From Flavobacterium sp. (GTDB taxonomy: Bacteria > Bacteroidota > Bacteroidia > Flavobacteriales > Flavobacteriaceae), in the NCBI RefSeq assembly GCF_044357305.1, contig NZ_JBIKPS010000009.1:20032-84031 (forward strand): 64,000 nt of DNA. Reading direction: 5' to 3'. This document shows positions 31,956-40,195 of the stretch, one piece after another (position 1 is the stretch's first letter; the number at the start of each line of letters is the position of its first letter). A model generated the notes under the pieces. It was not told where the DNA came from. It searched no databases and worked only from the letters and a program-made list of their open reading frames with translations. A program made the translations under genes and the position numbers.

Positions 31956-32076
31956 CTGAAGCGAATGGCTTGCGCATTTTAGAAAATGCAATTCCCGCTT
32001 TTCGTTGCAATCTGTCATTGCGAGGGACGAAGCAATCTCATAACAAATTGATATACGCAATGCCAGGATTTCCACT
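31956..32076. repeat. ~120-bp direct repeat, copy 2
   Basis: Near-identical to 26517-26639. Confidence 0.9.
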
Positions 32077-32090
32077 TTAATCGGGGCTAT

Positions 32091-32391
32091 TTAGCAATGG
32101 TATTGAATAGAGGCACTATTTCTAAGAAACTTCTGCTTCAAGTTGTCATTCTGACCAAGGAAGAATCCCAAACAAAACATAAAAAAACCACCAAAATCAC
32201 TTTTGATGGTTTCTGTTATTTCAATAAGTAAAACCGTTGTGTTACTTCGTGCAACCTTTGTGGCTCTTTGTGTTACAGTATAAAGTACTTTCACAAAGTT
32301 TCACTAAGAATTAAACTGTAATAGCTTGAGTTTATTTGCAAATCCGCCTATCGTTTTATTGATCCGAAGTCAGGAGACTTCGGATAGCGGG
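32091..32391. repeat. ~300-bp direct repeat, copy A
   Basis: About 11 differences from 33480-33780 by eye; ends in the hairpin atccgaagtc-agga-gacttcggat followed by agcggg. Confidence 0.95.
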
Positions 32392-32429
32392 GGAGCTAGA
32401 CAGGTTTTGTCTTTTGTAAAATCATTAGT

Positions 32430-32463
32430 TTACAACAACGAATGTTTTGTCATTACTTCTGGT
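32430..32463 (-). pseudogene. Relic duplicate of the gpmI 3' end (encodes PEVMTKHSLL-stop)
   Basis: 31/34 nt identical to 38678-38711 in the same orientation. Confidence 0.85.
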
Positions 32464-32502
32464 ATTTTTAAACACAAATTTAATTAGAAGAAGTAGGATA
32501 GA

Positions 32503-33111
32503 TTATGCCTTCAATAGAATTAAATCATAATACATTAAACGAGTTTCTAATTTGGAATTAGTAGCTATTCCTGTAAACTCTTTTTCTTGTTCTTCACTAC
32601 TAAATAAAGGAATAAATTCGTTGTCAGAATAATATTTTAAAGGTCCAGATTCGTTATAAGAATCCACAACAATAAAACGGCAGCCAGTTTTATTTGAACC
32701 ATCAATGAACCAAGATTTAATAAAATCCATCAATTGTTTGCCTATTCTTTCCGTTTCCTCTTTTAGGAATCGGTAGTTTTTATTTACCCCAAGTCTTCCA
32801 ATTAAAACAGCAGGATAGGATTTCATTTGTTTCTGTCTCGGAATGTTTTGAATTATTTTTTTCTTTCGTGCATTAGGTAAAAGAAATGTTTTTATACTAT
32901 CGTTGGAAATAGTGAAAGCACACACAATAATTTCTGGAGTTGCATCTAAAGTAAAACAATAGGTTTTGCCCAATAATTCAGAGGAATAATTTAAGGCGTC
33001 ATTACAGAAAAAATCATTTAAATCGGTATTGTCACAATCAAAAGGTAGACATGAATTAATGACTTCGCTGTTATAGATTTTCAGCGTGCATTTATCGAGA
33101 AGAAAGCCCAA
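32503..33111 (-). CDS. GNAT-fold acetyltransferase, toxin-like
   Basis: FDCDNTDLNDFF, YPAVLIGRLGV and GCRFIVVDSY..YY..NEF resemble AtaT/TacT-type GNATs; TTG start. Confidence 0.8.
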   Translation of the reverse strand: MGFLLDKCTLKIYNSEVINSCLPFDCDNTDLNDFFCNDALNYSSELLGKTYCFTLDATPEIIVCAFTISNDSIKTFLLPNARKKKIIQNIPRQKQMKSYPAVLIGRLGVNKNYRFLKEETERIGKQLMDFIKSWFIDGSNKTGCRFIVVDSYNESGPLKYYSDNEFIPLFSSEEQEKEFTGIATNSKLETRLMYYDLILLKA

Positions 33112-33118
33112 TGTATAA

Positions 33119-33274
33119 TTATATTTTCGCTTTCGCTAAAATTTTAGACGCAACAACCGATTGCTTAGAAAAATCTACAGAAGATTTTTTTGCAGTATTT
33201 AAAGCAACTGCCGAAGTAAAAACTTGTGCAGGTTTGTCTCTTAAAACAGGTATTGATTTGATTGCAATAGCCAT
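33119..33274 (-). CDS. 51-aa protein upstream of the GNAT gene (putative antitoxin); missing from the ORF track
   Basis: Hand translation MAIAIKSIPVLRDKPAQVFTSAVALNTAKKSSVDFSKQSVVASKILAKAKI; a TACTTTTG promoter at 33296-33303; 7 nt to the GNAT start. Confidence 0.75.
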   Translation of the reverse strand: MAIAIKSIPVLRDKPAQVFTSAVALNTAKKSSVDFSKQSVVASKILAKAKI

Positions 33275-33443
33275 AATTAAATTAGTTTAATAATGCAAAA
33301 GTAAATTAATCATTAAAAATAACAATACAATGAACTAAAATTTAACAATATCTCCCCGCCAGTGTCATCCAACATAGGAGAAATCTCATAATAGTGACAG
33401 TATATCTGATAGCCTTGCGGGTGCCTATCCTCGAGATTTATTG

Positions 33444-33467
33444 ATCCGAAGTCTGGAGACTTCGGAT
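33444..33467. repeat. REP-like hairpin ATCCGAAGTC-N4-GACTTCGGAT (also at 32362-32385 and 33751-33774)
   Basis: Perfect 10-bp stem; three copies, each followed by AGCGGG. Confidence 0.85.
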
Positions 33468-33479
33468 AGCGGGAGCTAG

Positions 33480-33780
33480 TTAGCAATGGTATTGAATAGA
33501 GGCACTATTTCTAAGAAACTTCTGCTTCAAGTTGTCATTCTGACGAAGCAAGAATCCCAAACAAAACATAAAAAAACCACCAAAATCACTTTTGATGGTT
33601 TCTGTTATTTCAATAAGTAAAACCTTTGTGTTACTTCGTGCAACCTTTGTGGCTCTTTGTGTTACAGTATAAAGTTCTTTCACAAAGTTTCACTAAGATT
33701 TAAACTGCAATAGCTTGAGTTTATTTACAAATCTGCCTATCGTTTTATTGATCCGAAGTCAGGAGACTTCAGATAGCGGG
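33480..33780. repeat. ~300-bp direct repeat, copy B
   Basis: Offset of 1389 nt from copy A. Confidence 0.95.
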
Positions 33781-33781
33781 A

Positions 33782-33991
33782 GGTCAGTATAGAGTTTCGG
33801 TAAGACCTTATTGAGCTTCGGTAGGTCAGTATAGAGTTTCGGTAAGACCTTATAGAGCTACGGTAGGTCAATATAGGTTTTCGGTAGGTCAGTATAGAGT
33901 TTCGGTAGGTCAGTATAGAGCTTCGGTAGGTCAATATAGGTTTTCGGTAAGACCTTATAGAGCTTCGGTAAGTCAATATAGAGTTTCGGTA
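33782..33991. repeat. 10 x 21-bp tandem array
   Basis: Consensus GGTCAGT-ATAGAGT-TTCGGTA with recurring variants; every unit ends in CGGTA. Confidence 0.95.
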
Positions 33992-34050
33992 AGGCTTAAT
34001 GCTTTTTACATAAGGCTTAATGCTTTTTACATAAGGCTTAATGCCTTATA
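33991..34050. repeat. Second 21-bp tandem repeat, about 2.8 copies
   Basis: aaggcttaatgctttttacat twice, then aaggcttaatgccttata. Confidence 0.9.
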
Positions 34051-34127
34051 ATTTTGTTTTTTTTGCCACAGATTCTCACGGATGCCACGGATTTTTTAGA
34101 ATGCCACCGTTTTGACATTTAAACGTA

Positions 34128-34158
34128 AAAGCCACAAACGAATTTGTGGCCTTTAAAA
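34128..34158 (-). terminator. Probable terminator after the T9SS gene
   Basis: Stem gccacaaa/tttgtggc with a U-tract on the minus strand. Confidence 0.55.
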
Positions 34159-34176
34159 AAATACTAACTGAAACTT

Positions 34177-35862
34177 TTATTGTTTTACAATTTTAAAAAC
34201 CTGTTCTTTATTTTCAGTTTCTGCCTTAATAATATAATTGCCAGAAGGCAAAATAGTTAAATCCATATTGAACTCACTACTGTTCTTAAACTGATTAATT
34301 AACAATTGCCCAAGCACATTATAAACAGAAATTTGTTTTAGTATCTCATTAGATTTTATCGTTATAAAATCCTTAACTGGATTCGGGTTGAAATCAATCG
34401 TTAGTAATTGATTTTGATTAACTCCTAAACCTAGTGTTACAGTTATTGCTAATCTTGGACCTTCGCAACCATTAACTGTTTGACTAACATAATAAGTTGT
34501 ACCAGAAACTAAGGGAGTTGTATTTGAAATGGCACTATTTCCAGCGGAAGTGCTATACCATTGAATATTCGTCCCGGTCACAATAAGATTAGCTAGTGTG
34601 TTACCAGTACTAAATGTTTGACTTGAAGTTCCAGTCGGAGCACTCGTTGTATTTAGTATTGTAGCGCTTGTAGTTGAAGAACAGGAACCATTAGTAATTA
34701 CACAAGTATAACTTCCAGAAGCAGTAGCAGAATAAGTAGCTGACGTTGCTCCTGAAATAGTCACTCCGTCCTTTTTCCACTGATAACTGTTAGATGAGCC
34801 TGCAGGCACTGTTAATAGTTGAGACCCACAAAAAGAATTTGTTCCGTTAGGACTCATTACAAAAGAACTTGATAATACCGTTACATCCGATGTTTTTGTA
34901 CAACCTGATGAACTGTCTGTAACTTTAACGGCATAACTACCCGTAGCAGTAGGTAAATAATTGATATTTATTCCACTTACAATAGTATTTCCATTTAAAG
35001 TCCACTGATAGGTTAAATTAGTTCCTGAATTAGCAACCAAATTAAAATTACTTGAAGCACATACCAAAACCTGCCCAGAAGGAGTCATTGTTGCAATTGG
35101 TAATGGTTTAAATGTAATATTTATTGCGTCTGTATAAGTTGTGTTATCTAATGTCGCAGAAACACCATAATCGCCCGCTAATGTTGGAGTAAAGGTAACA
35201 GATTGTCCGTGAGTGCCATCAAACCAAGTAGGAGTAAATCCATTTGGCCCTGCATAATTTAGGGTTACAGGTGTATCAGGACAAATTTGTAACGCATCAC
35301 CTTCTTGAACTAAATTGGCATTAGGGTTCGCTCCATATGGAAAAACCACTTTTTTAAATAAAGGTCCCCAATTATTATTTACATCTTTTGCACGAATGTT
35401 AAATAATATTGGTCCTGAAGCAATATCCCAAGTGGCTTGAGTTCTAAAAATGGTTTCTACAGCCTCGTCAAGTGCACCGTCAAAAGCTACAATAGTAGTT
35501 CCGCTGCCTTCTCCTGGATCAAAATTACCAAAGAAATATTCAAACTTAGTAAGTTTTATTTGTCTTGAATTAGAAGTATTTGGCATAACAAACATAACTT
35601 TTTTGAAAATGGGACCCCATAAGTTACTTCCATCTTTTACCCTAATATTAAATAATACAGGTCCAATATTTGTTTGAGTATTAACATAATTTGCAATTAT
35701 ACTTTCCACCCTTTCATTAAACACTCCATCTTCTGCAATTAATATTGTACCGTTACCATTTCCAGGGTCAATAGTTCCCCAAAAATATTCTGCTGCAGTA
35801 ATTTTTTGCTGTGCATTAATACAACTGCCTACTAATAAAAATAATAGTATTAACTTTTTCAT
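34177..35862 (-). CDS. T9SS type-A CTD protein with two EYF..DPG.G.GT repeats and Ig-like domains
   Basis: Signal peptide; duplicated ~80-aa N-terminal unit; Thr/Ser-rich Ig-like modules; CTD FNPNPVKD..ISVYNVLGQ..LPSGNYIIK..VFKIVKQ. Confidence 0.88.
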   Translation of the reverse strand: MKKLILLFLLVGSCINAQQKITAAEYFWGTIDPGNGNGTILIAEDGVFNERVESIIANYVNTQTNIGPVLFNIRVKDGSNLWGPIFKKVMFVMPNTSNSRQIKLTKFEYFFGNFDPGEGSGTTIVAFDGALDEAVETIFRTQATWDIASGPILFNIRAKDVNNNWGPLFKKVVFPYGANPNANLVQEGDALQICPDTPVTLNYAGPNGFTPTWFDGTHGQSVTFTPTLAGDYGVSATLDNTTYTDAINITFKPLPIATMTPSGQVLVCASSNFNLVANSGTNLTYQWTLNGNTIVSGININYLPTATGSYAVKVTDSSSGCTKTSDVTVLSSSFVMSPNGTNSFCGSQLLTVPAGSSNSYQWKKDGVTISGATSATYSATASGSYTCVITNGSCSSTTSATILNTTSAPTGTSSQTFSTGNTLANLIVTGTNIQWYSTSAGNSAISNTTPLVSGTTYYVSQTVNGCEGPRLAITVTLGLGVNQNQLLTIDFNPNPVKDFITIKSNEILKQISVYNVLGQLLINQFKNSSEFNMDLTILPSGNYIIKAETENKEQVFKIVKQ

Positions 35863-35867
35863 ACTAC

Positions 35868-37208
35868 TTAATTTTTATGGTATCCTTTAGCTTTAATATC
35901 TATACTTTGACCAGGAAACAAATCCGTTGGCATATCTAAATCAAAAATAAACGCTTTGCTATTATTCGAGTTTGATGTCGGATTGTAATTTAATAGTGAA
36001 TATGGACCTCCATTTCTTCCCCTATCATTAATTGTTAAATCAATGTCGTAAAATTGGTGATTAGGATTTCCTCCATCAATTTCGTTAGCTGGTCCTTGAA
36101 TATTTGTTAAATTTAAAGGAGAACCAGATGTAGGGTTAATGAATGCTGTTTGAAGTCCATTATATGAAAAATCAAAAAATCCTGGAACGTTAATATTGGG
36201 AAAATTATTAGACCCTAAAGAAACCCAGCCATAACACATGAAATTAGGAGGCATGGTTGGATTGTTTTGCCCATTTATATAATACCATCCACTAGGTCCA
36301 TTACAACACCAGTTCCATGAAGGCATCCATTCATTGTAGCTCATAGGTGAGTTTGGCAAAGTAGTATAACTTTGTTGATAAAATAAACCACAATTACCAC
36401 TAGATGCTGTCACAAACCCATTAATAAATTTATTACTAGAAAAAATAATATTGTATCTTGGCACACTTGAAATGGAAAAATTTAACACACAATTATCTGT
36501 AAATTCATTATTTGTTATGTAGTTTTTTATATTTTCATTTGCATTCCATCTTCTAAAAGATAAATCCCGCATAGAATTATTTGCTACTACCACAGGATAA
36601 TCATTATTGAAAACCCCAATCAAAAACTGTACTTGATTTGCTATTATTAAATTACGTTCAGTTATGTTAGGATTATCTTGAGGCTCATCCATTAGAGAAA
36701 TTTGTTTTGTTATATTCTTTATTACATTACCATTTCTAAAAATAATCCCGTTTGTAATTTGATTTTCAATAAAATTCACTTGATAATAATCATTATCAAA
36801 CGATAAATATTCCGAACTACAATTTATAATACTTATTTTACTTCTGTTTGAAGCTATGCCTCCTATTATTGGACTAGCATTAAATGAATAAATACCTAAA
36901 TTAAATCCTATTATTTCTAATTTCATTCCTGCAAAACCACTAATAATAATATTTGCATTGAAATTAATTGTTGTGCCAGGAGTTTGGGGCATTATCTGTA
37001 GTGATTTTGAAATTGTTAACTCTGGTTCATTATAGGTTGTAGAAGCAATAATTATTCTATCCCCGTTTACTGCAGCATTTACAGCGGAAGTAATTGAAGT
37101 GAATAAAGTAGTTCCATTACCTGCGGAAAGGTTGGGGTCAACAAAACGGTCTGTAGCAAAAATGCTGGTAGCCGTAAGAAAAGTTAAAATTGTAAAGATT
37201 TTTTTCAT
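35868..37208 (-). CDS. Secreted protein with a predicted right-handed beta-helix; no T9SS CTD
   Basis: Signal peptide; FTSITSAVNAAVNGDRIII..YNE start typical of parallel beta-helices; Asn-rich; IDGGNP..DIDLTINDRG.NGG near the C-terminus. Confidence 0.7.
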   Translation of the reverse strand: MKKIFTILTFLTATSIFATDRFVDPNLSAGNGTTLFTSITSAVNAAVNGDRIIIASTTYNEPELTISKSLQIMPQTPGTTINFNANIIISGFAGMKLEIIGFNLGIYSFNASPIIGGIASNRSKISIINCSSEYLSFDNDYYQVNFIENQITNGIIFRNGNVIKNITKQISLMDEPQDNPNITERNLIIANQVQFLIGVFNNDYPVVVANNSMRDLSFRRWNANENIKNYITNNEFTDNCVLNFSISSVPRYNIIFSSNKFINGFVTASSGNCGLFYQQSYTTLPNSPMSYNEWMPSWNWCCNGPSGWYYINGQNNPTMPPNFMCYGWVSLGSNNFPNINVPGFFDFSYNGLQTAFINPTSGSPLNLTNIQGPANEIDGGNPNHQFYDIDLTINDRGRNGGPYSLLNYNPTSNSNNSKAFIFDLDMPTDLFPGQSIDIKAKGYHKN

Positions 37209-37274
37209 GGTTATTTTATGTAAAATTGATTTTTTTTATTCGTGTATAATTTTGGAAAGCTTAAATAGACAACA

Positions 37275-37595
37275 TTAATTATTACGGTCACAGAAAACTA
37301 AAGATTTACATATTCGTTTACTTTTTGGACATTTTCTTAAACCTAAAGAAAAGGATTTGTTTTTTATAAGTTGACTAACTACATTATTTACTGACTGACA
37401 AGTGTTTGCATGACCTATTACATTTTTATGAGTTCTTATCCAAACATCGAGTGATTTTGGTTTTGGATGTAGACTTAAGATTACTTTATTTGATCCTATA
37501 ATCATATATTCAATTTTGCTTTCTTTGAAGTGTGCTATTAAATCCTGAATAGGAATTGTTTTATTATTAGCATGTGGTAATATTATTTGTTCCAT
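37275..37595 (-). CDS. Hypothetical 106-aa basic protein with C-terminal CPxSxRxC
   Basis: ATG start, no competing ORF, same strand as the downstream pair; TAAGTTTG promoter-like box at 37693-37700. Confidence 0.65.
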   Translation of the reverse strand: MEQIILPHANNKTIPIQDLIAHFKESKIEYMIIGSNKVILSLHPKPKSLDVWIRTHKNVIGHANTCQSVNNVVSQLIKNKSFSLGLRKCPKSKRICKSLVFCDRNN

Positions 37596-37783
37596 TTTCC
37601 ATTTTTTATTAATTAGCCCGCCTAATGAGTTTCGTATAAATATTTTTACATTTATTTATTGTCTTGAAATAGTTGCTTTACGTAATTTCCTACAAACTTA
37701 CAATTGGAATTAAGAAAAAAACTTTTGTAAAATTTCTTTAATTGAATAAAAACGTCTAATTTTGAACTATTAATACTTTTATC

Positions 37784-38134
37784 ATGATACAACAAGCAGA
37801 AATTAAGATTAAACAAATAAGAGAGTTGAAAAATATTACACAAGAATATGTGGCTCAAAAGTTGGGCTTATCTACTCGGGCGTATAGTAAAATAGAATCG
37901 GGTGAAACGCAATTAACCATCAATAGGTTAAATGAAATTTCTGAGGCATTAGGTGTTGGTTCTATGGAAGTATTGGGTTTTGATGATAAACAGGTTTTTA
38001 ACAATTGCAAACAAGATGGGTATATTGGAATAAATCATATTAATATTCCAGATAAATTAATTCAGCAATACGAAGAAACTATTCAGTCTCTTAAAGAACA
38101 AATACAATTAATGAAATTGCTACAAGATAAATAA
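37784..38134 (+). CDS. XRE family HTH transcriptional regulator
   Basis: IKQIRELKNITQEYVAQKLGLSTRAYSKIESG HTH with a C-terminal coiled coil. Confidence 0.92.
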   Translation: MIQQAEIKIKQIRELKNITQEYVAQKLGLSTRAYSKIESGETQLTINRLNEISEALGVGSMEVLGFDDKQVFNNCKQDGYIGINHINIPDKLIQQYEETIQSLKEQIQLMKLLQDK

Positions 38135-38299
38135 TTTTTTAAGTTACTCTTACAGTGCCAAATATATTCCGTTACAGTAGGAATCTCATAAATAGAGTCA
38201 GTAAATCCTATTGTATTATCTGTTTTTTTTGTATAACTTTGGGATGTATTCGTTAACAGCTTGTTAGTGAAAACGGCAGGTAGTATTAAATTAAAAATA

Positions 38300-38542
38300 A
38301 TGGAAGCACAACAATTACAAACCGATAAGGTAAATATAATCAACTGGATTAATCAGTTACAAGATAATTCACTTATTGAGCAAATAAAATCCATGATGGT
38401 ATCTGATATTTGTTTGTTGTCCAATGAACAAAAAAACGCTATAGACGAAGCCTTAAAATCTATAGAAAAAGAAGGAACTACTCCGCACAATGCTGTAATG
38501 GAAGAAACTAAAAAACGTTTCCCTCACCTTTATAATAGATAA
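38300..38542 (+). CDS. Small protein resembling addiction-module antitoxins
   Basis: KVNIINWINQLQD..LIEQIK, LSNEQKNAIDEAL.SIE and PHNAVM pattern; TAACTTTG promoter at 38234-38241. Confidence 0.65.
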   Translation: MEAQQLQTDKVNIINWINQLQDNSLIEQIKSMMVSDICLLSNEQKNAIDEALKSIEKEGTTPHNAVMEETKKRFPHLYNR

Positions 38543-38548
38543 ATTCGG

Positions 38549-38608
38549 ATGGAGATTTCTTGGTCGAAACTAGCAAAAATCGATGCTAGAATAATTATCA
38601 AGATGTAG
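38549..38608 (+). pseudogene. Truncated RelE/ParE-like toxin stub
   Basis: MEISWSKLAKI resembles the start of RelE/ParE toxins (compare MTVIWTSIAKK at 52452); stops after 19 codons. Confidence 0.5.
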
Positions 38609-38623
38609 GTAAATTTACTTTAT

Positions 38624-38652
38624 AAAAAAAACTGGCAATTGCCAGTTTTTTT
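38624..38652. terminator. Bidirectional terminator
   Basis: aaaaaaaactggcaattgccagttttttt. Confidence 0.8.
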
Positions 38653-38677
38653 ATACTATTAATATTTTAATACTATT

Positions 38678-40195
38678 CTACAACAACGAATGTCTTGTCA
38701 TTACGTCTGGTTTTGCAACCCCCATTAATTCTAAAATAGTAGGAGCAATATCCCCAAGAACGCCATCGTGAATGGTTTTCAATTCTTTATCTACCAAAAT
38801 AATGGGCACAGGGTTGGTAGTATGCGCCGTATTTGGTGAACCATCTGGGTTAATCATCGTTTCGCAATTTCCGTGGTCGGCAATGATTATCGTGGTGTAA
38901 TTGTTTTCAAGAGCCGCCTCAACAACTTCTTTTACACAAGCATCTACCGCTTCGCAAGCTTTTATAGCAGCAGCCATTACGCCAGTATGTCCCACCATAT
39001 CGCCATTGGCAAAATTTAGGCATACAAAATCTACTTCTCCTTTTTTAAGTTCGGGAATTAAAGCATCTTTCAATTCAAAGGCGCTCATTTCGGGTTGTAA
39101 ATCGTAGGTGGCTACTTTTGGAGAATTGCGTAAAATTCTAGTTTCTCCCACAAACGGAATCTCTCTTCCGCCAGAAAAGAAAAACGTAACGTGAGGGTAT
39201 TTTTCGGTTTCGGCAATACGAATTTGGGTTTTACCCGCCTTTTCTAAAATCTCTCCTAGCGTTTCGGTAAGGTTGTCTTTGTCGTAAATTACATGAACGT
39301 TTTGGTACGTATCATCATAATTGGTCATGGTAACATAATACAAATTCATTTTGTGCATGTTGAATTCGTGCATATCTTTTTGCGAAAGCACTTCGGTCAA
39401 CTCCCGACCTCTATCCGTTCGGAAATTAAAGAAAATAACCACATCGTCTTCTTCTATTTTTGCTAATGGAACGCCATTGGCATCTACCATAACAATAGGT
39501 TGCAAGAATTCATCGGTTACATTTTCGGCATAACTTTTTTGGATGCTTTCTACAGCATTAATAGAGGGAGTTCCTTCATTTTCAACCAATACATCGTACG
39601 CCAATTTTACTCGTTCCCAACGTTTGTCCCGGTCCATAGCATAATAACGACCAATGATGGTAGCAATTTTTGCATTGGAACCTTTCATGTGGTTTTCCAA
39701 ATTGGCAATATCTTTCGCAGCCGATTTAGGGTCTACGTCGCGCCCATCGGTAAAGGCATGTACGAATACTTTTTGCAAACCAAAGTCTTTGGCAGCATCC
39801 AACAATCCGTACAAATGCGAAGTATGTGAGTGCACGCCGCCATTAGAAACTAATCCTAAAAAATGTACTTTTTTGTTGTGGTCTTTGGCATATTGAAACG
39901 CATCCAAAAGAGGCTTTTCTTGGTTCATGGTTTTATTTTGAACCGCCAAATTTATCTTAGCCAAATCTTGGTATACAATTCGTCCGGCACCCAAATTCAT
40001 GTGGCCTACTTCGGAATTTCCCATTTGTCCTTCGGGCAATCCAACATTTAAACCATCGGTTCTAAGTTGTGCGCTAGGGTATTTGGTATATAAACTATTT
40101 ATAAAAGGAATAGTAGCATTATCTATAGCAGATACTTTTGGATCGGGAGATTTCCCCCATCCGTCTAGAATCATTAAAATTACTTTCTTGTTCAT
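38678..40195 (-). CDS. gpmI: 2,3-bisphosphoglycerate-independent phosphoglycerate mutase
   Basis: ILDGWG, GQMGNSEVGH, GRYYAMDRD, AETEKYPH, DMVGHTG, ADHGN and HTTNPVP motifs. Confidence 0.97.
   Translation of the reverse strand: MNKKVILMILDGWGKSPDPKVSAIDNATIPFINSLYTKYPSAQLRTDGLNVGLPEGQMGNSEVGHMNLGAGRIVYQDLAKINLAVQNKTMNQEKPLLDAFQYAKDHNKKVHFLGLVSNGGVHSHTSHLYGLLDAAKDFGLQKVFVHAFTDGRDVDPKSAAKDIANLENHMKGSNAKIATIIGRYYAMDRDKRWERVKLAYDVLVENEGTPSINAVESIQKSYAENVTDEFLQPIVMVDANGVPLAKIEEDDVVIFFNFRTDRGRELTEVLSQKDMHEFNMHKMNLYYVTMTNYDDTYQNVHVIYDKDNLTETLGEILEKAGKTQIRIAETEKYPHVTFFFSGGREIPFVGETRILRNSPKVATYDLQPEMSAFELKDALIPELKKGEVDFVCLNFANGDMVGHTGVMAAAIKACEAVDACVKEVVEAALENNYTTIIIADHGNCETMINPDGSPNTAHTTNPVPIILVDKELKTIHDGVLGDIAPTILELMGVAKPDVMTRHSLL

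What the first reader, a model, noticed from the sequence alone, without database searches (positions are those of the whole stretch)
34177..37208. Uncharacterised two-gene secreted module: CTD-less beta-helix protein plus a T9SS partner
Seen in sequence: the genes are 5 nt apart. The upstream protein has a signal peptide but no T9SS CTD. The downstream protein has a type-A CTD, Ig-like stalk domains and two N-terminal EYF(W/F)G..DPG.G.GT..LFNIR.KD..N.WGP.FKK repeats. Established: T9SS cargo normally needs its own CTD. Inference: the duplicated module may bind the beta-helix protein (perhaps its beta-rich C-terminus) and carry or display it, a piggy-back secretion or adhesin pair.
Basis: partly seen in the sequence, partly recalled or inferred. 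Interest (0 to 1): 0.62.

Follow-up and report, generated by a model that had tools for sequence, protein, structure and literature searches.

The report
Split beta-helix head and T9SS stalk
A secreted beta-helix protein with no export tag is always encoded directly upstream of, or fused to, a type IX secretion surface protein that starts with an undescribed "EYF" repeat, so the two probably form one head-and-stalk surface structure, and the untagged head may leave the cell by riding on its partner.

Summary
Two minus-strand genes lie 5 nt apart. A (35868-37208, 446 aa) has a signal peptide and a right-handed beta-helix, and no Pfam or NCBIfam hit. B (34177-35862, 561 aa) has a signal peptide, two ~80-aa EYF repeats, Ig-like domains and a type A T9SS CTD.

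The proposed co-occurrence test passes in both directions. All 30 evaluable A loci from species genomes have an EYF-array gene directly downstream or fused. In 401 species of the genus, 25 of 28 evaluable EYF loci have an A gene directly upstream, down to about 25% identity. Minimal partners are only signal peptide + one EYF + CTD.

At least three natural fusions exist (signal peptide, A, short linker, one EYF, Ig-like domains, CTD), in two separate branches of the A tree.

A's C-terminal tail and EYF2 are the best-conserved parts of the two proteins (81-84% and 83%). The tail is poorly modelled in A alone (pLDDT about 45-54) and well modelled in a fusion (77-95). That comparison is confounded.

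Best reading: a two-polypeptide head-and-stalk surface protein. Piggy-back export of A through the T9SS is plausible but untested. I found no described precedent. In this genome the pair sits in a 6.2-kb inserted island.

The parts
35868..37208 (-). Gene A: 446-aa secreted right-handed beta-helix protein (the 'head'), with no CTD
   Evidence: ORF. No Pfam or NCBIfam hit. AF2 beta-helix model. Foldseek matches only beta-helix folds. Single copy in the genome.
37155..37208 (-). A signal peptide (aa 1-18, MKKIFTILTFLTATSIFA, SPI type)
   Evidence: Read from the sequence. M1, K2, A18 and D20 are conserved in 96-98% of 56 homologs.
36075..37154 (-). A beta-helix body (aa 19-378), comprising a conserved N-terminal cap (19-70), a variable helix and hypervariable Cys-rich loops (271-340)
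   Evidence: AF2 pLDDT is mostly above 85. Identity among 7 orthologs is 82% for the cap, 53% for the helix and 23% for the loops.
35871..36074 (-). A C-terminal tail (aa 379-446: GGNPNHxYYDIDLTINDRGxxGGPYS...AFIFDLDMPTDLFPGQxIDIKAKGYHKN), the candidate docking element
   Evidence: It is the best-conserved part of A at 81-84% identity, and is conserved across the deep family (G380 P382 D388 D390 D395 G397 G400 G401 N407 P427). Block-mean pLDDT is about 45-54 in A alone, 38 for the last six residues, and 77-95 for the equivalent residues in the fusion model. It is not homologous to EYF.
35863..35867 (-). 5-nt intergenic spacer (gtagt) between A's stop codon and B's start codon
   Evidence: Spacing is -4 to +26 nt in most related loci.
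34177..35862 (-). Gene B: 561-aa T9SS type A cargo (the 'stalk' or anchor)
35806..35862 (-). B signal peptide (aa 1-19, ...CINA|QQ). The Cys is not conserved in partners, so the peptide is SPI type
   Evidence: Read from the sequence. The N-termini of 18 partners are compared.
35563..35805 (-). EYF repeat 1 (aa 20-100)
   Evidence: Repeat HMM. 68% identity among orthologs. No Pfam, NCBIfam or PDB sequence match.
35314..35562 (-). EYF repeat 2 (aa 101-183, 'QATW ... VFPYGxNPNA' type), the repeat type that the natural fusions retain
   Evidence: 83% identity among orthologs, the best-conserved part of B. It is the only repeat kept in the fusions L025, L037 and P0247.
34393..35313 (-). Ig-like / PKD-like stalk domains (aa 184-490)
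   Evidence: Sub-threshold PKD, PKD_3, PKD_4 and Ig_2 hits. Orthologs are tagged PF00801, PF13895 and PF19081. The fusion model shows a beta-sandwich after EYF, and Foldseek finds tandem Ig domains.
34180..34386 (-). T9SS type A C-terminal sorting domain (aa 493-561)
   Evidence: TIGR04183 at 48.9 bits against a cut-off of 23, and PF18962 at 45 bits. 19 of 21 partner C-termini carry it.
32426..32466 (.). Left copy of the 41-nt direct repeat (a duplicated gpmI 3' end) that bounds the island carrying A and B
   Evidence: 88% identity to 38674-38714. Relatives have TetR directly beside gpmI.
38674..38714 (.). Right copy of the 41-nt direct repeat, at the true 3' end of gpmI

Best explanation
A and B are the two halves of one cell-surface protein.

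Shown:
- A is a Sec-exported right-handed beta-helix without any T9SS sorting domain.
- B is a Sec-exported T9SS type A cargo. Its mature N-terminus is an array of EYF domains (small Ig-like sandwiches), followed by an Ig-like stalk and the CTD.
- The two genes are obligately linked or fused.

Inferred:
- In the periplasm, A's conserved ~70-residue C-terminal tail docks non-covalently on an EYF domain. The most likely target is the last, EYF2-type repeat.
- The T9SS recognises B's CTD and carries the folded A-B complex across the outer membrane.
- A then sits as a variable 'head' on the B stalk, on the cell surface or released.
- The head is more likely a binding or adhesion module than an enzyme. 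Its body and loops vary fast, and no acidic catalytic cluster is conserved.

In this genome the cassette arrived within a 6.2-kb inserted island.

The confidence of 0.55 is for the whole statement. Taken separately, I put about 0.75 on A and B forming one physical unit, and about 0.4 on A being exported by riding on B through the T9SS.
For: 1. Linkage from the A side. All 30 evaluable A loci from species genomes carry an EYF-array gene directly downstream on the same strand, or fused to A. Three further loci end at a contig edge. The same holds for 13 of 13 A-bearing species of the genus and for one other genus, down to 25% identity. It also holds for two metagenome loci at 23-32% identity.
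2. Linkage from the EYF side. EYF occurs in 31 of 401 species of the genus, and 25 of 28 evaluable loci have an A-family gene directly upstream. One more upstream ORF is a remote A-like beta-helix.
3. A and B are the only genes conserved across these loci.
4. Natural fusions. L025 (1098 aa), L037 (1517 aa) and P0247 (1332 aa) each have a signal peptide, complete A, a 10-16-aa linker, one EYF, Ig-like domains and a CTD. They sit in two separate places in the A tree.
5. Minimal partners are only signal peptide + one EYF + CTD, 178 aa in all. That architecture fits an adaptor.
6. 19 of 21 partner C-termini carry TIGR04183, and the genome encodes SprA.
7. A's tail (81-84%) and EYF2 (83%) are the most conserved segments. 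The helix is 53%, the loops 23% and the CTD 35%.
8. AF2 block-mean pLDDT for the tail is about 45-54 in A alone, 38 for the last six residues. The equivalent residues score 77-95 in the fusion model, where two tail strands directly precede five EYF strands, and pTM is 0.80 for 610 residues.
9. T9SS exports folded proteins (PMC9251779).
Against: - No experiment or transcript data exist.
- I found no described case of non-covalent co-export through the T9SS, so the export step has no precedent.
- The pLDDT comparison is confounded. The two models use different proteins and different alignments, no control model could be run, and neither PAE nor coordinates were returned. No interface was observed.
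- One A gene faces 1-8 EYF repeats, which a simple 1:1 complex does not explain.
- Two of 21 partners lack a CTD: L021 ends in another module and L023 in dockerin-like repeats.
- Divergent EYF-like repeats also occur inside giant proteins without an A gene (L087 and a 1665-aa ORF in G634).
- A fusion of a catalytic or binding module with a small beta-sandwich is also what ordinary modular enzymes look like.
Confidence: 0.55

Rival explanations
1. The coupling is functional, not physical. EYF is a carbohydrate-binding-type module on a surface protein, and A is a beta-helix glycan-active enzyme or binding protein for the same substrate. A works in the periplasm or leaves the cell by another route. 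The two are co-regulated and are sometimes fused, like catalytic module + CBM architectures.
For: - Foldseek places A nearest to pectin methylesterases, PL6 alginate lyases, RbmB and tailspikes.
- EYF is a small beta-sandwich with conserved aromatic residues that occurs in tandem arrays, as CBMs do.
- EYF-like repeats occur in other protein contexts.
Against: - No acidic catalytic cluster is conserved on the helix across the family. The conserved residues are the cap, the Asn ladder, K68, R122 and the tail.
- A has no Pfam lyase or hydrolase hit at all.
- In the fusions A is exported, while in split form it would be periplasmic, so the same substrate would have to be in different compartments.
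- The most conserved segments are the tail and EYF2, not a putative active site.
- 178-aa partners made only of EYF + CTD are odd as glycan binders that always need one specific neighbour.
Confidence: 0.17
2. Extracellular docking in the cohesin-dockerin style. A reaches the outside independently, for example in vesicles or through an unrecognised signal, and then clips onto EYF arrays of surface-anchored B. The result is a multivalent scaffold.
For: - Arrays of 1-8 EYF repeats face a single A gene.
- The partner's C-terminal anchor is exchangeable: a CTD in 19 of 21, a dockerin-like end in L023 and another module in L021.
- The tail carries a conserved D-x-D-x-T-x-N-D-x-G motif.
Against: - No export route for A is evident.
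- A has no dockerin hit and B has no cohesin hit in Pfam at E<=1.
- The fusions retain only one EYF.
Confidence: 0.1
3. A is a periplasmic maturation factor for the EYF domain (a chaperone, foldase or modifying enzyme) and is not part of the final surface structure.
For: The adjacency is strict, A comes first in the gene order, and A lacks any CTD.
Against: - In the fusions the complete A, including its tail, is the N-terminal domain of the exported protein, with no evident cleavage module.
- A's body and loops diverge fast (23-53% identity), as expected for an exposed surface rather than a conserved enzyme or chaperone.
Confidence: 0.06

Closest known systems
T9SS type A CTD surface and secreted proteins of Bacteroidota (TIGR04183 / PF18962 cargo, such as RemA-type adhesins with Ig-like stalks)
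   Same: B has a Sec signal peptide, Ig-like/PKD-like stalk domains and a type A CTD above the curated cut-off. The genome has SprA. The fused relatives are ordinary single-chain cargo with a beta-helix head.
   Different: Here the head is a separate polypeptide with its own signal peptide and no CTD. It is strictly linked to an N-terminal repeat that neither the local Pfam copy nor NCBIfam 20.0 describes.
Hitch-hiker (piggy-back) co-export, as described for Tat substrates and peroxisomal import (PMC9251779)
   Same: Proposed logic: a folded protein without a targeting signal is carried by a partner that has one, through a machine that accepts folded cargo.
   Different: The machinery is different (T9SS, outer membrane). 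I found no reported T9SS case, and binding and co-export are not shown here.
Cohesin-dockerin scaffoldin systems
   Same: Tandem arrays of a small beta-sandwich sit on an anchored protein. They face a conserved C-terminal tail, rich in Asp, Asn and Gly, on a partner that lacks its own anchor. The anchor on the scaffold side is exchangeable.
   Different: Neither protein has a Pfam dockerin or cohesin match. The tail is not a duplicated EF-hand pair. The genes are strictly adjacent, one to one, and the fusions keep a single repeat.
T9SS type B CTD cargo with a cognate PorP/SprF-like gene next door
   Same: A dedicated neighbouring gene is needed for one specific T9SS cargo, and the pair is inherited together.
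   Different: A is a soluble beta-helix encoded upstream, not an outer-membrane beta-barrel encoded downstream. B carries a type A CTD, not type B.
Right-handed parallel beta-helix proteins (pectin methylesterase, PL6 lyases, RbmB, phage tailspikes)
   Same: The fold of A residues 20-372.
   Different: The matches are weak (E>=4e-3, TM<=0.34, 10-14% identity). No family HMM hits A, and no conserved catalytic acids are present.

Membership tests
T9SS type A CTD cargo (protein B) | C-terminal type A sorting domain (TIGR04183 / PF18962) above the curated cut-off | tested here: met
   TIGR04183 scores 48.9 bits against a cut-off of 23 at residues 493-561, and PF18962 scores 45 against 27. 19 of 21 partner C-termini match.
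T9SS type A CTD cargo (protein B) | N-terminal Sec signal peptide | tested here: met
   MKKLILLFLLVGSCINA|QQ, read from the sequence. All 18 partners inspected have an h-region ending in ..AQ or similar, with no conserved Cys. No signal-peptide predictor was available.
T9SS type A CTD cargo (protein B) | T9SS machinery encoded in the same genome | tested here: met
   PF14349 (SprA_N) matches a 2448-aa ORF at 448 bits on contig C36. Other components were not searched.
T9SS type A CTD cargo (protein B) | Secretion depends on the CTD and on the T9SS | not testable with these tools
   Needs mutants and secretome analysis.
T9SS cargo (protein A) | Any recognised CTD (type A TIGR04183, type B TIGR04131, type C NF033708) | tested here: not met
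   A has no NCBIfam or Pfam family at E<=1. In the fusions A's C-terminus is internal, so it cannot act as a C-terminal signal there.
Right-handed parallel beta-helix (pectate-lyase-like fold), protein A | Three-sheet right-handed beta-helix fold | tested here: met
   The AF2 model has pLDDT mostly above 85 over residues 20-372, with about 12 coils of short strands. All Foldseek PDB matches are beta-helix proteins, with probabilities up to 0.99 but E>=4e-3.
Polysaccharide lyase / glycoside hydrolase beta-helix enzymes (PL1, PL6, PL9, CE8, GH28) | Family HMM match and conserved catalytic residues | tested here: not met
   No Pfam hit. Across 56 homologs the conserved residues are the cap, the Asn ladder, K68, R122 and the tail, with no conserved acidic cluster on the helix.
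Cohesin-dockerin | Dockerin (PF00404-type duplicated Ca loops) on the cargo and a cohesin domain on the scaffold | tested here: not met
   No dockerin or cohesin family appears in the Pfam scans of A or B at E<=1. The resemblance is architectural only.
A-EYF cassette (the unit defined here) | An A-family beta-helix gene directly upstream of, or fused to, a gene whose mature N-terminus is an EYF array | tested here: met
   The window pair has a 5-nt gap. The rule holds in 30 of 30 evaluable A loci and 25 of 28 evaluable EYF loci.

The most novel reading that the evidence does not exclude
The EYF domain is a dedicated docking domain. Through it, a T9SS cargo carries a folded, CTD-less beta-helix protein across the outer membrane and displays it. 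This would be the first hitch-hiker (non-covalent co-export) route for the type IX secretion system. Multi-EYF arrays would act as scaffolds that display several heads.
Probability: 0.35. Interest if true: 0.8.

Novelty: new variant of a known kind. Interest (0 to 1): 0.62.

Why it matters
T9SS cargo is defined by its own C-terminal domain. A widespread cassette in which an untagged protein is strictly tied to a tagged adaptor would change that picture. The family has 1088 representatives at 50% clustering, mostly from uncultured freshwater Bacteroidota. If the head really rides on its partner, T9SS secretomes predicted from CTDs alone are incomplete.

The cassette also offers a small natural docking pair (a ~70-aa tail and an ~80-aa EYF domain) for surface display. 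It defines a domain family absent from the local Pfam copy and NCBIfam 20.0. The natural fusions supply a built-in control, which makes the hypothesis directly testable.

Tried and rejected
- A tail as a degenerate EYF repeat. MAFFT tended to align ...PGQ..IDIKAKG onto PGxG...NIRxKD, but hhalign of 58 tails against 47 repeats gave probability 0.2%, so the idea is rejected.
- P0121 (five EYF repeats plus a C-terminal PF13229 beta-helix) as a Rosetta stone. BLASTP against A gave only E=0.11, so I did not use it.
- Phage origin. The collagen and Peptidase_S74 neighbours in L021 prompted the question, but a scan of viral contigs with the A profile found no relative.
- Lipoprotein anchoring of B through Cys14. 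The Cys is not conserved in partners.
- A third conserved gene. Only lineage-specific neighbours were found: the atp operon in 10-13 loci, and XRE plus a 106-aa ORF in close Flavobacterium relatives.
- Literature on T9SS piggy-back or hitch-hiker export. Nothing relevant turned up.
- Pfam accession PF27503, tagged on five multi-EYF proteins, is not in the local Pfam copy, so I could not read its definition. It may already describe EYF.
- My first alignment for the fusion model (A3) misplaced the A tails and was discarded. A4 was checked before use.
Full report
**1. What is there**

The window has two minus-strand ORFs. A lies at 35868-37208 (446 aa) and B at 34177-35862 (561 aa). The junction reads AAT TAA gtagt ATG, a 5-nt gap with no terminator-like site between the genes.

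A begins with an SPI-type signal peptide (MKKIFTILTFLTATSIFA|TDRF). It has no Pfam or NCBIfam match at E<=1. B has a signal peptide and two ~80-aa repeats of the form EYF[WF]G..DPG.G.G ... LFNIR.KD..N.WGP.FKK, at residues 21-100 and 104-183. These are followed by near-threshold PKD/Ig matches and a type A T9SS sorting domain (TIGR04183, 48.9 bits against a cut-off of 23, residues 493-561). The repeat is also visible in the DNA.

The AlphaFold2 model of A, built from 63 homologs, is a right-handed beta-helix over residues 20-372. Its pLDDT is mostly 86-98, with dips to about 70 in the loops near 271-310. Foldseek finds only beta-helix proteins such as pectin methylesterase, PL6 lyases, RbmB and tailspikes. 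The matches are weak, with best E 4e-3 and TM at most 0.34. The genome encodes SprA, so a T9SS is present.

**2. The pair is a conserved cassette**

A is rare. It is single-copy in this genome. A single-sequence query found it in 13 of 401 species of the genus and in 1 of 300 other genera of the family. The genus is Flavobacterium, judging by the names on near-identical proteins and loci.

In all 14 of those genomes the gene immediately downstream starts with the B repeat module. This holds even where A is only 25-35% identical. A scan of one genome per species returned 33 loci. All are MAGs, mostly freshwater: Flavobacterium, Crocinitomicaceae, other Flavobacteriales, Chitinophagaceae, Aquirufa, Polaribacter and Paludibacter. 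Using my own HMMs for A and for the repeat, all 30 evaluable loci have an EYF-array gene directly downstream on the same strand or fused to A. The other three loci end at a contig edge.

Two multi-repeat proteins picked from the repeat search, P0132 and P0141, also have an A homolog directly upstream, at 23% and 32% identity.

The reverse test gives the same answer. The repeat occurs in 31 of 401 species of the genus, and those 31 include all 13 A-positive species. With a broader A profile, 25 of 28 evaluable repeat loci have an A-family gene directly upstream, with E-values of 1e-44 to 1e-178. One further upstream ORF (L088) is a remote A-like beta-helix, at hhalign probability 90%. The true exceptions are divergent EYF-like repeats inside giant proteins (L087 and a 1665-aa ORF in G634).

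No other gene is conserved across the loci. The repeat number runs from 1 to 8. The smallest partners, at 178 aa, are only signal peptide + one EYF + CTD. Of 21 partner C-termini, 19 carry TIGR04183. L021 ends in a different module and L023 in dockerin-like repeats.

**3. Natural fusions**

Two loci, L025 (1098 aa) and L037 (1517 aa), encode a single chain. Each has a signal peptide, complete A including its C-terminal tail, a 10-15-aa linker, one EYF repeat, Ig-like domains and a type A CTD.

A profile search of 1.84 billion representative proteins found 1088 A-family members at E<=0.001, of which 310 score 1e-10 or better. Nearly all of the best 150 are 370-480 aa. The search also found the fusions P0242 (the L025 type), P0244 (the L037 type) and a third, P0247 (1332 aa), with the same architecture.

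In a FastTree of A domains, the L037 fusion lies apart from the L025/P0247 group, and that group has the stand-alone protein P0030 nested within it. This implies at least two fusion or fission events. Branch supports were not assessed.

The single repeat kept in all fusions is the EYF2 type ('QATW', 'VFPYGxNPNA'). In these lineages the head is exported as part of a T9SS cargo. That argues that A acts outside the cell, in the same molecule or complex as the EYF-stalk protein.

**4. Where the contact might be**

I compared seven ortholog pairs region by region.

| Protein | Region | Identity to the window protein |
|---|---|---|
| A | N-terminal cap (19-70) | 82% |
| A | Helix (71-270) | 53% |
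| A | Loops (271-340) | 23% |
| A | Tail (379-408 and 409-446) | 84% and 81% |
| B | EYF1 | 68% |
| B | EYF2 | 83% |
| B | Ig-like region | 62-69% |
| B | CTD | 35% |

The tail also holds most of the residues conserved across the whole deep family.

In the model of A alone, the tail has block-mean pLDDT of about 45-54, and 38 for the last six residues. In a model of the natural fusion L037 (residues 1-610, 103-row alignment checked for correct placement), the equivalent residues score 77-95. Two tail strands (409-415 and 427-434) run straight into five EYF strands, the linker scores 77, and pTM is 0.80. Foldseek on that model returns tandem Ig-like sandwiches.

This fits a tail that folds against an EYF domain, but it is not proof. 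The two models differ in protein and in alignment, I had no structure jobs left for a control, and neither PAE nor coordinates were returned. The tail is not itself an EYF repeat.

**5. Mechanism**

The best-supported reading is a two-polypeptide head-and-stalk surface protein.

- Shown: the strict bidirectional linkage, the fusions, the domain content, the absence of a CTD on A and its presence on B, and the presence of a T9SS.
- Inferred: that A's tail docks on EYF (probably the last repeat) in the periplasm, that B's CTD takes the folded complex through the T9SS, and that A is then displayed or released.

T9SS is known to move folded proteins (PMC9251779). I found no report of non-covalent co-export through it. 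The head's fast-evolving body, its hypervariable Cys-rich loops and its lack of a conserved acidic cluster point to a binding or adhesion role rather than catalysis. That point is weak.

The rivals are:
- substrate-level coupling of a glycan-active beta-helix with a CBM-like surface protein;
- cohesin-dockerin-style docking outside the cell after independent export;
- A as a periplasmic maturation factor for EYF.

The fusions and the conservation pattern count against the first and third of these. The absence of any export route for A counts against the second.

**6. Context in this genome**

The pair lies in a 6.2-kb segment bounded by 41-nt direct repeats of the gpmI 3' end, at 32426-32466 and 38674-38714 (88% identical). 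Three relatives (G305, G317 and G318) have the TetR gene directly beside gpmI, about 125 nt apart. That is an empty site.

The cassette's patchy distribution across orders fits horizontal transfer. No relative was found in viral contigs. In close Flavobacterium relatives, an XRE regulator and a 106-aa ORF travel with the pair.

**7. Novelty and limits**

Public sources name both proteins only 'hypothetical protein' or 'T9SS type A sorting domain-containing protein'. The EYF domain has no match in the local Pfam copy, in NCBIfam 20.0 or among PDB sequences. A newer Pfam accession, PF27503, tagged on five multi-repeat proteins, could not be read.

Other agents' notes in this scan describe the same kind of pair in other genomes and reach a similar reading. 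I treat those as leads only; my tests here were independent of them.

I class the finding as a new variant of a known kind: T9SS surface cargo split into an untagged head and a tagged EYF stalk. The categorically new element, hitch-hiker export through the T9SS, is still unproven.

Noticed in passing
window 32426-32466 and 38674-38714 (island about 32467-38673): A 41-nt direct repeat (88% identical) duplicates the 3' end of gpmI. It bounds a 6.2-kb integrase-free insert carrying orf202, repeats, B, A, orf106, an XRE gene and orf93. Relatives G305, G317 and G318 have TetR directly beside gpmI, which is an empty site.
   Followed up: partly
window 31987-32092 (-): A Flavo-1 sRNA (RF01705, 58 bits against a gathering score of 42) lies between the TetR gene and the left island boundary, abutting the 300-nt repeat.
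   Followed up: no
window 32083-32382 and 33472-33771: A 300-nt direct repeat (96% identical) flanks the 202-aa ORF at 32503-33111. There are also three copies of a 39-nt hairpin-bearing motif (TTTATTGATCCGAAGTC.GGAGACTTCGGATAGCGGG) at 32355, 33437 and 33744.
   Followed up: no
window 33783-34044: A 21-nt tandem array lies about 130 nt downstream of B's stop codon: about 10 copies of GTCAATATAGAGTTTCGGTAA, then 2.6 copies of TAAGGCTTAATGCTTTTTACA. Its function is unknown.
   Followed up: no
window 37275-37595 (-) and 37784-38134 (+): A 106-aa ORF without a signal peptide and a divergent XRE-family regulator lie just upstream of A. Both are conserved next to the pair in close Flavobacterium relatives only (60-89% identity), so they may be a local regulator and accessory gene.
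   Followed up: partly
L021:1-11047: In one lake-metagenome contig the A-EYF pair (six repeats, no CTD) lies between collagen-like/PTL_trimer and collagen/Peptidase_S74 proteins and a 945-aa Laminin_G_3 protein. The Laminin_G_3 protein shares the partner's unusual C-terminal module (...W.PCNW.PQ.VP...LTVNNGANLQI..CP).
   Followed up: no
L023:6001-8568: This EYF partner (four repeats) ends in dockerin-like repeats (DLNGDGNTDLLD) instead of a T9SS CTD. The anchor end of the stalk protein is therefore exchangeable.
   Followed up: no
L086 and L088 (genus genomes G667 and G697): A more divergent repeat type (AEYYFDTDPGxG ... GxHxLFIRxKDxxNxWS) is also preceded by beta-helix-like ORFs that my A profile does not detect. 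The pairing rule may extend to a wider superfamily.
   Followed up: partly
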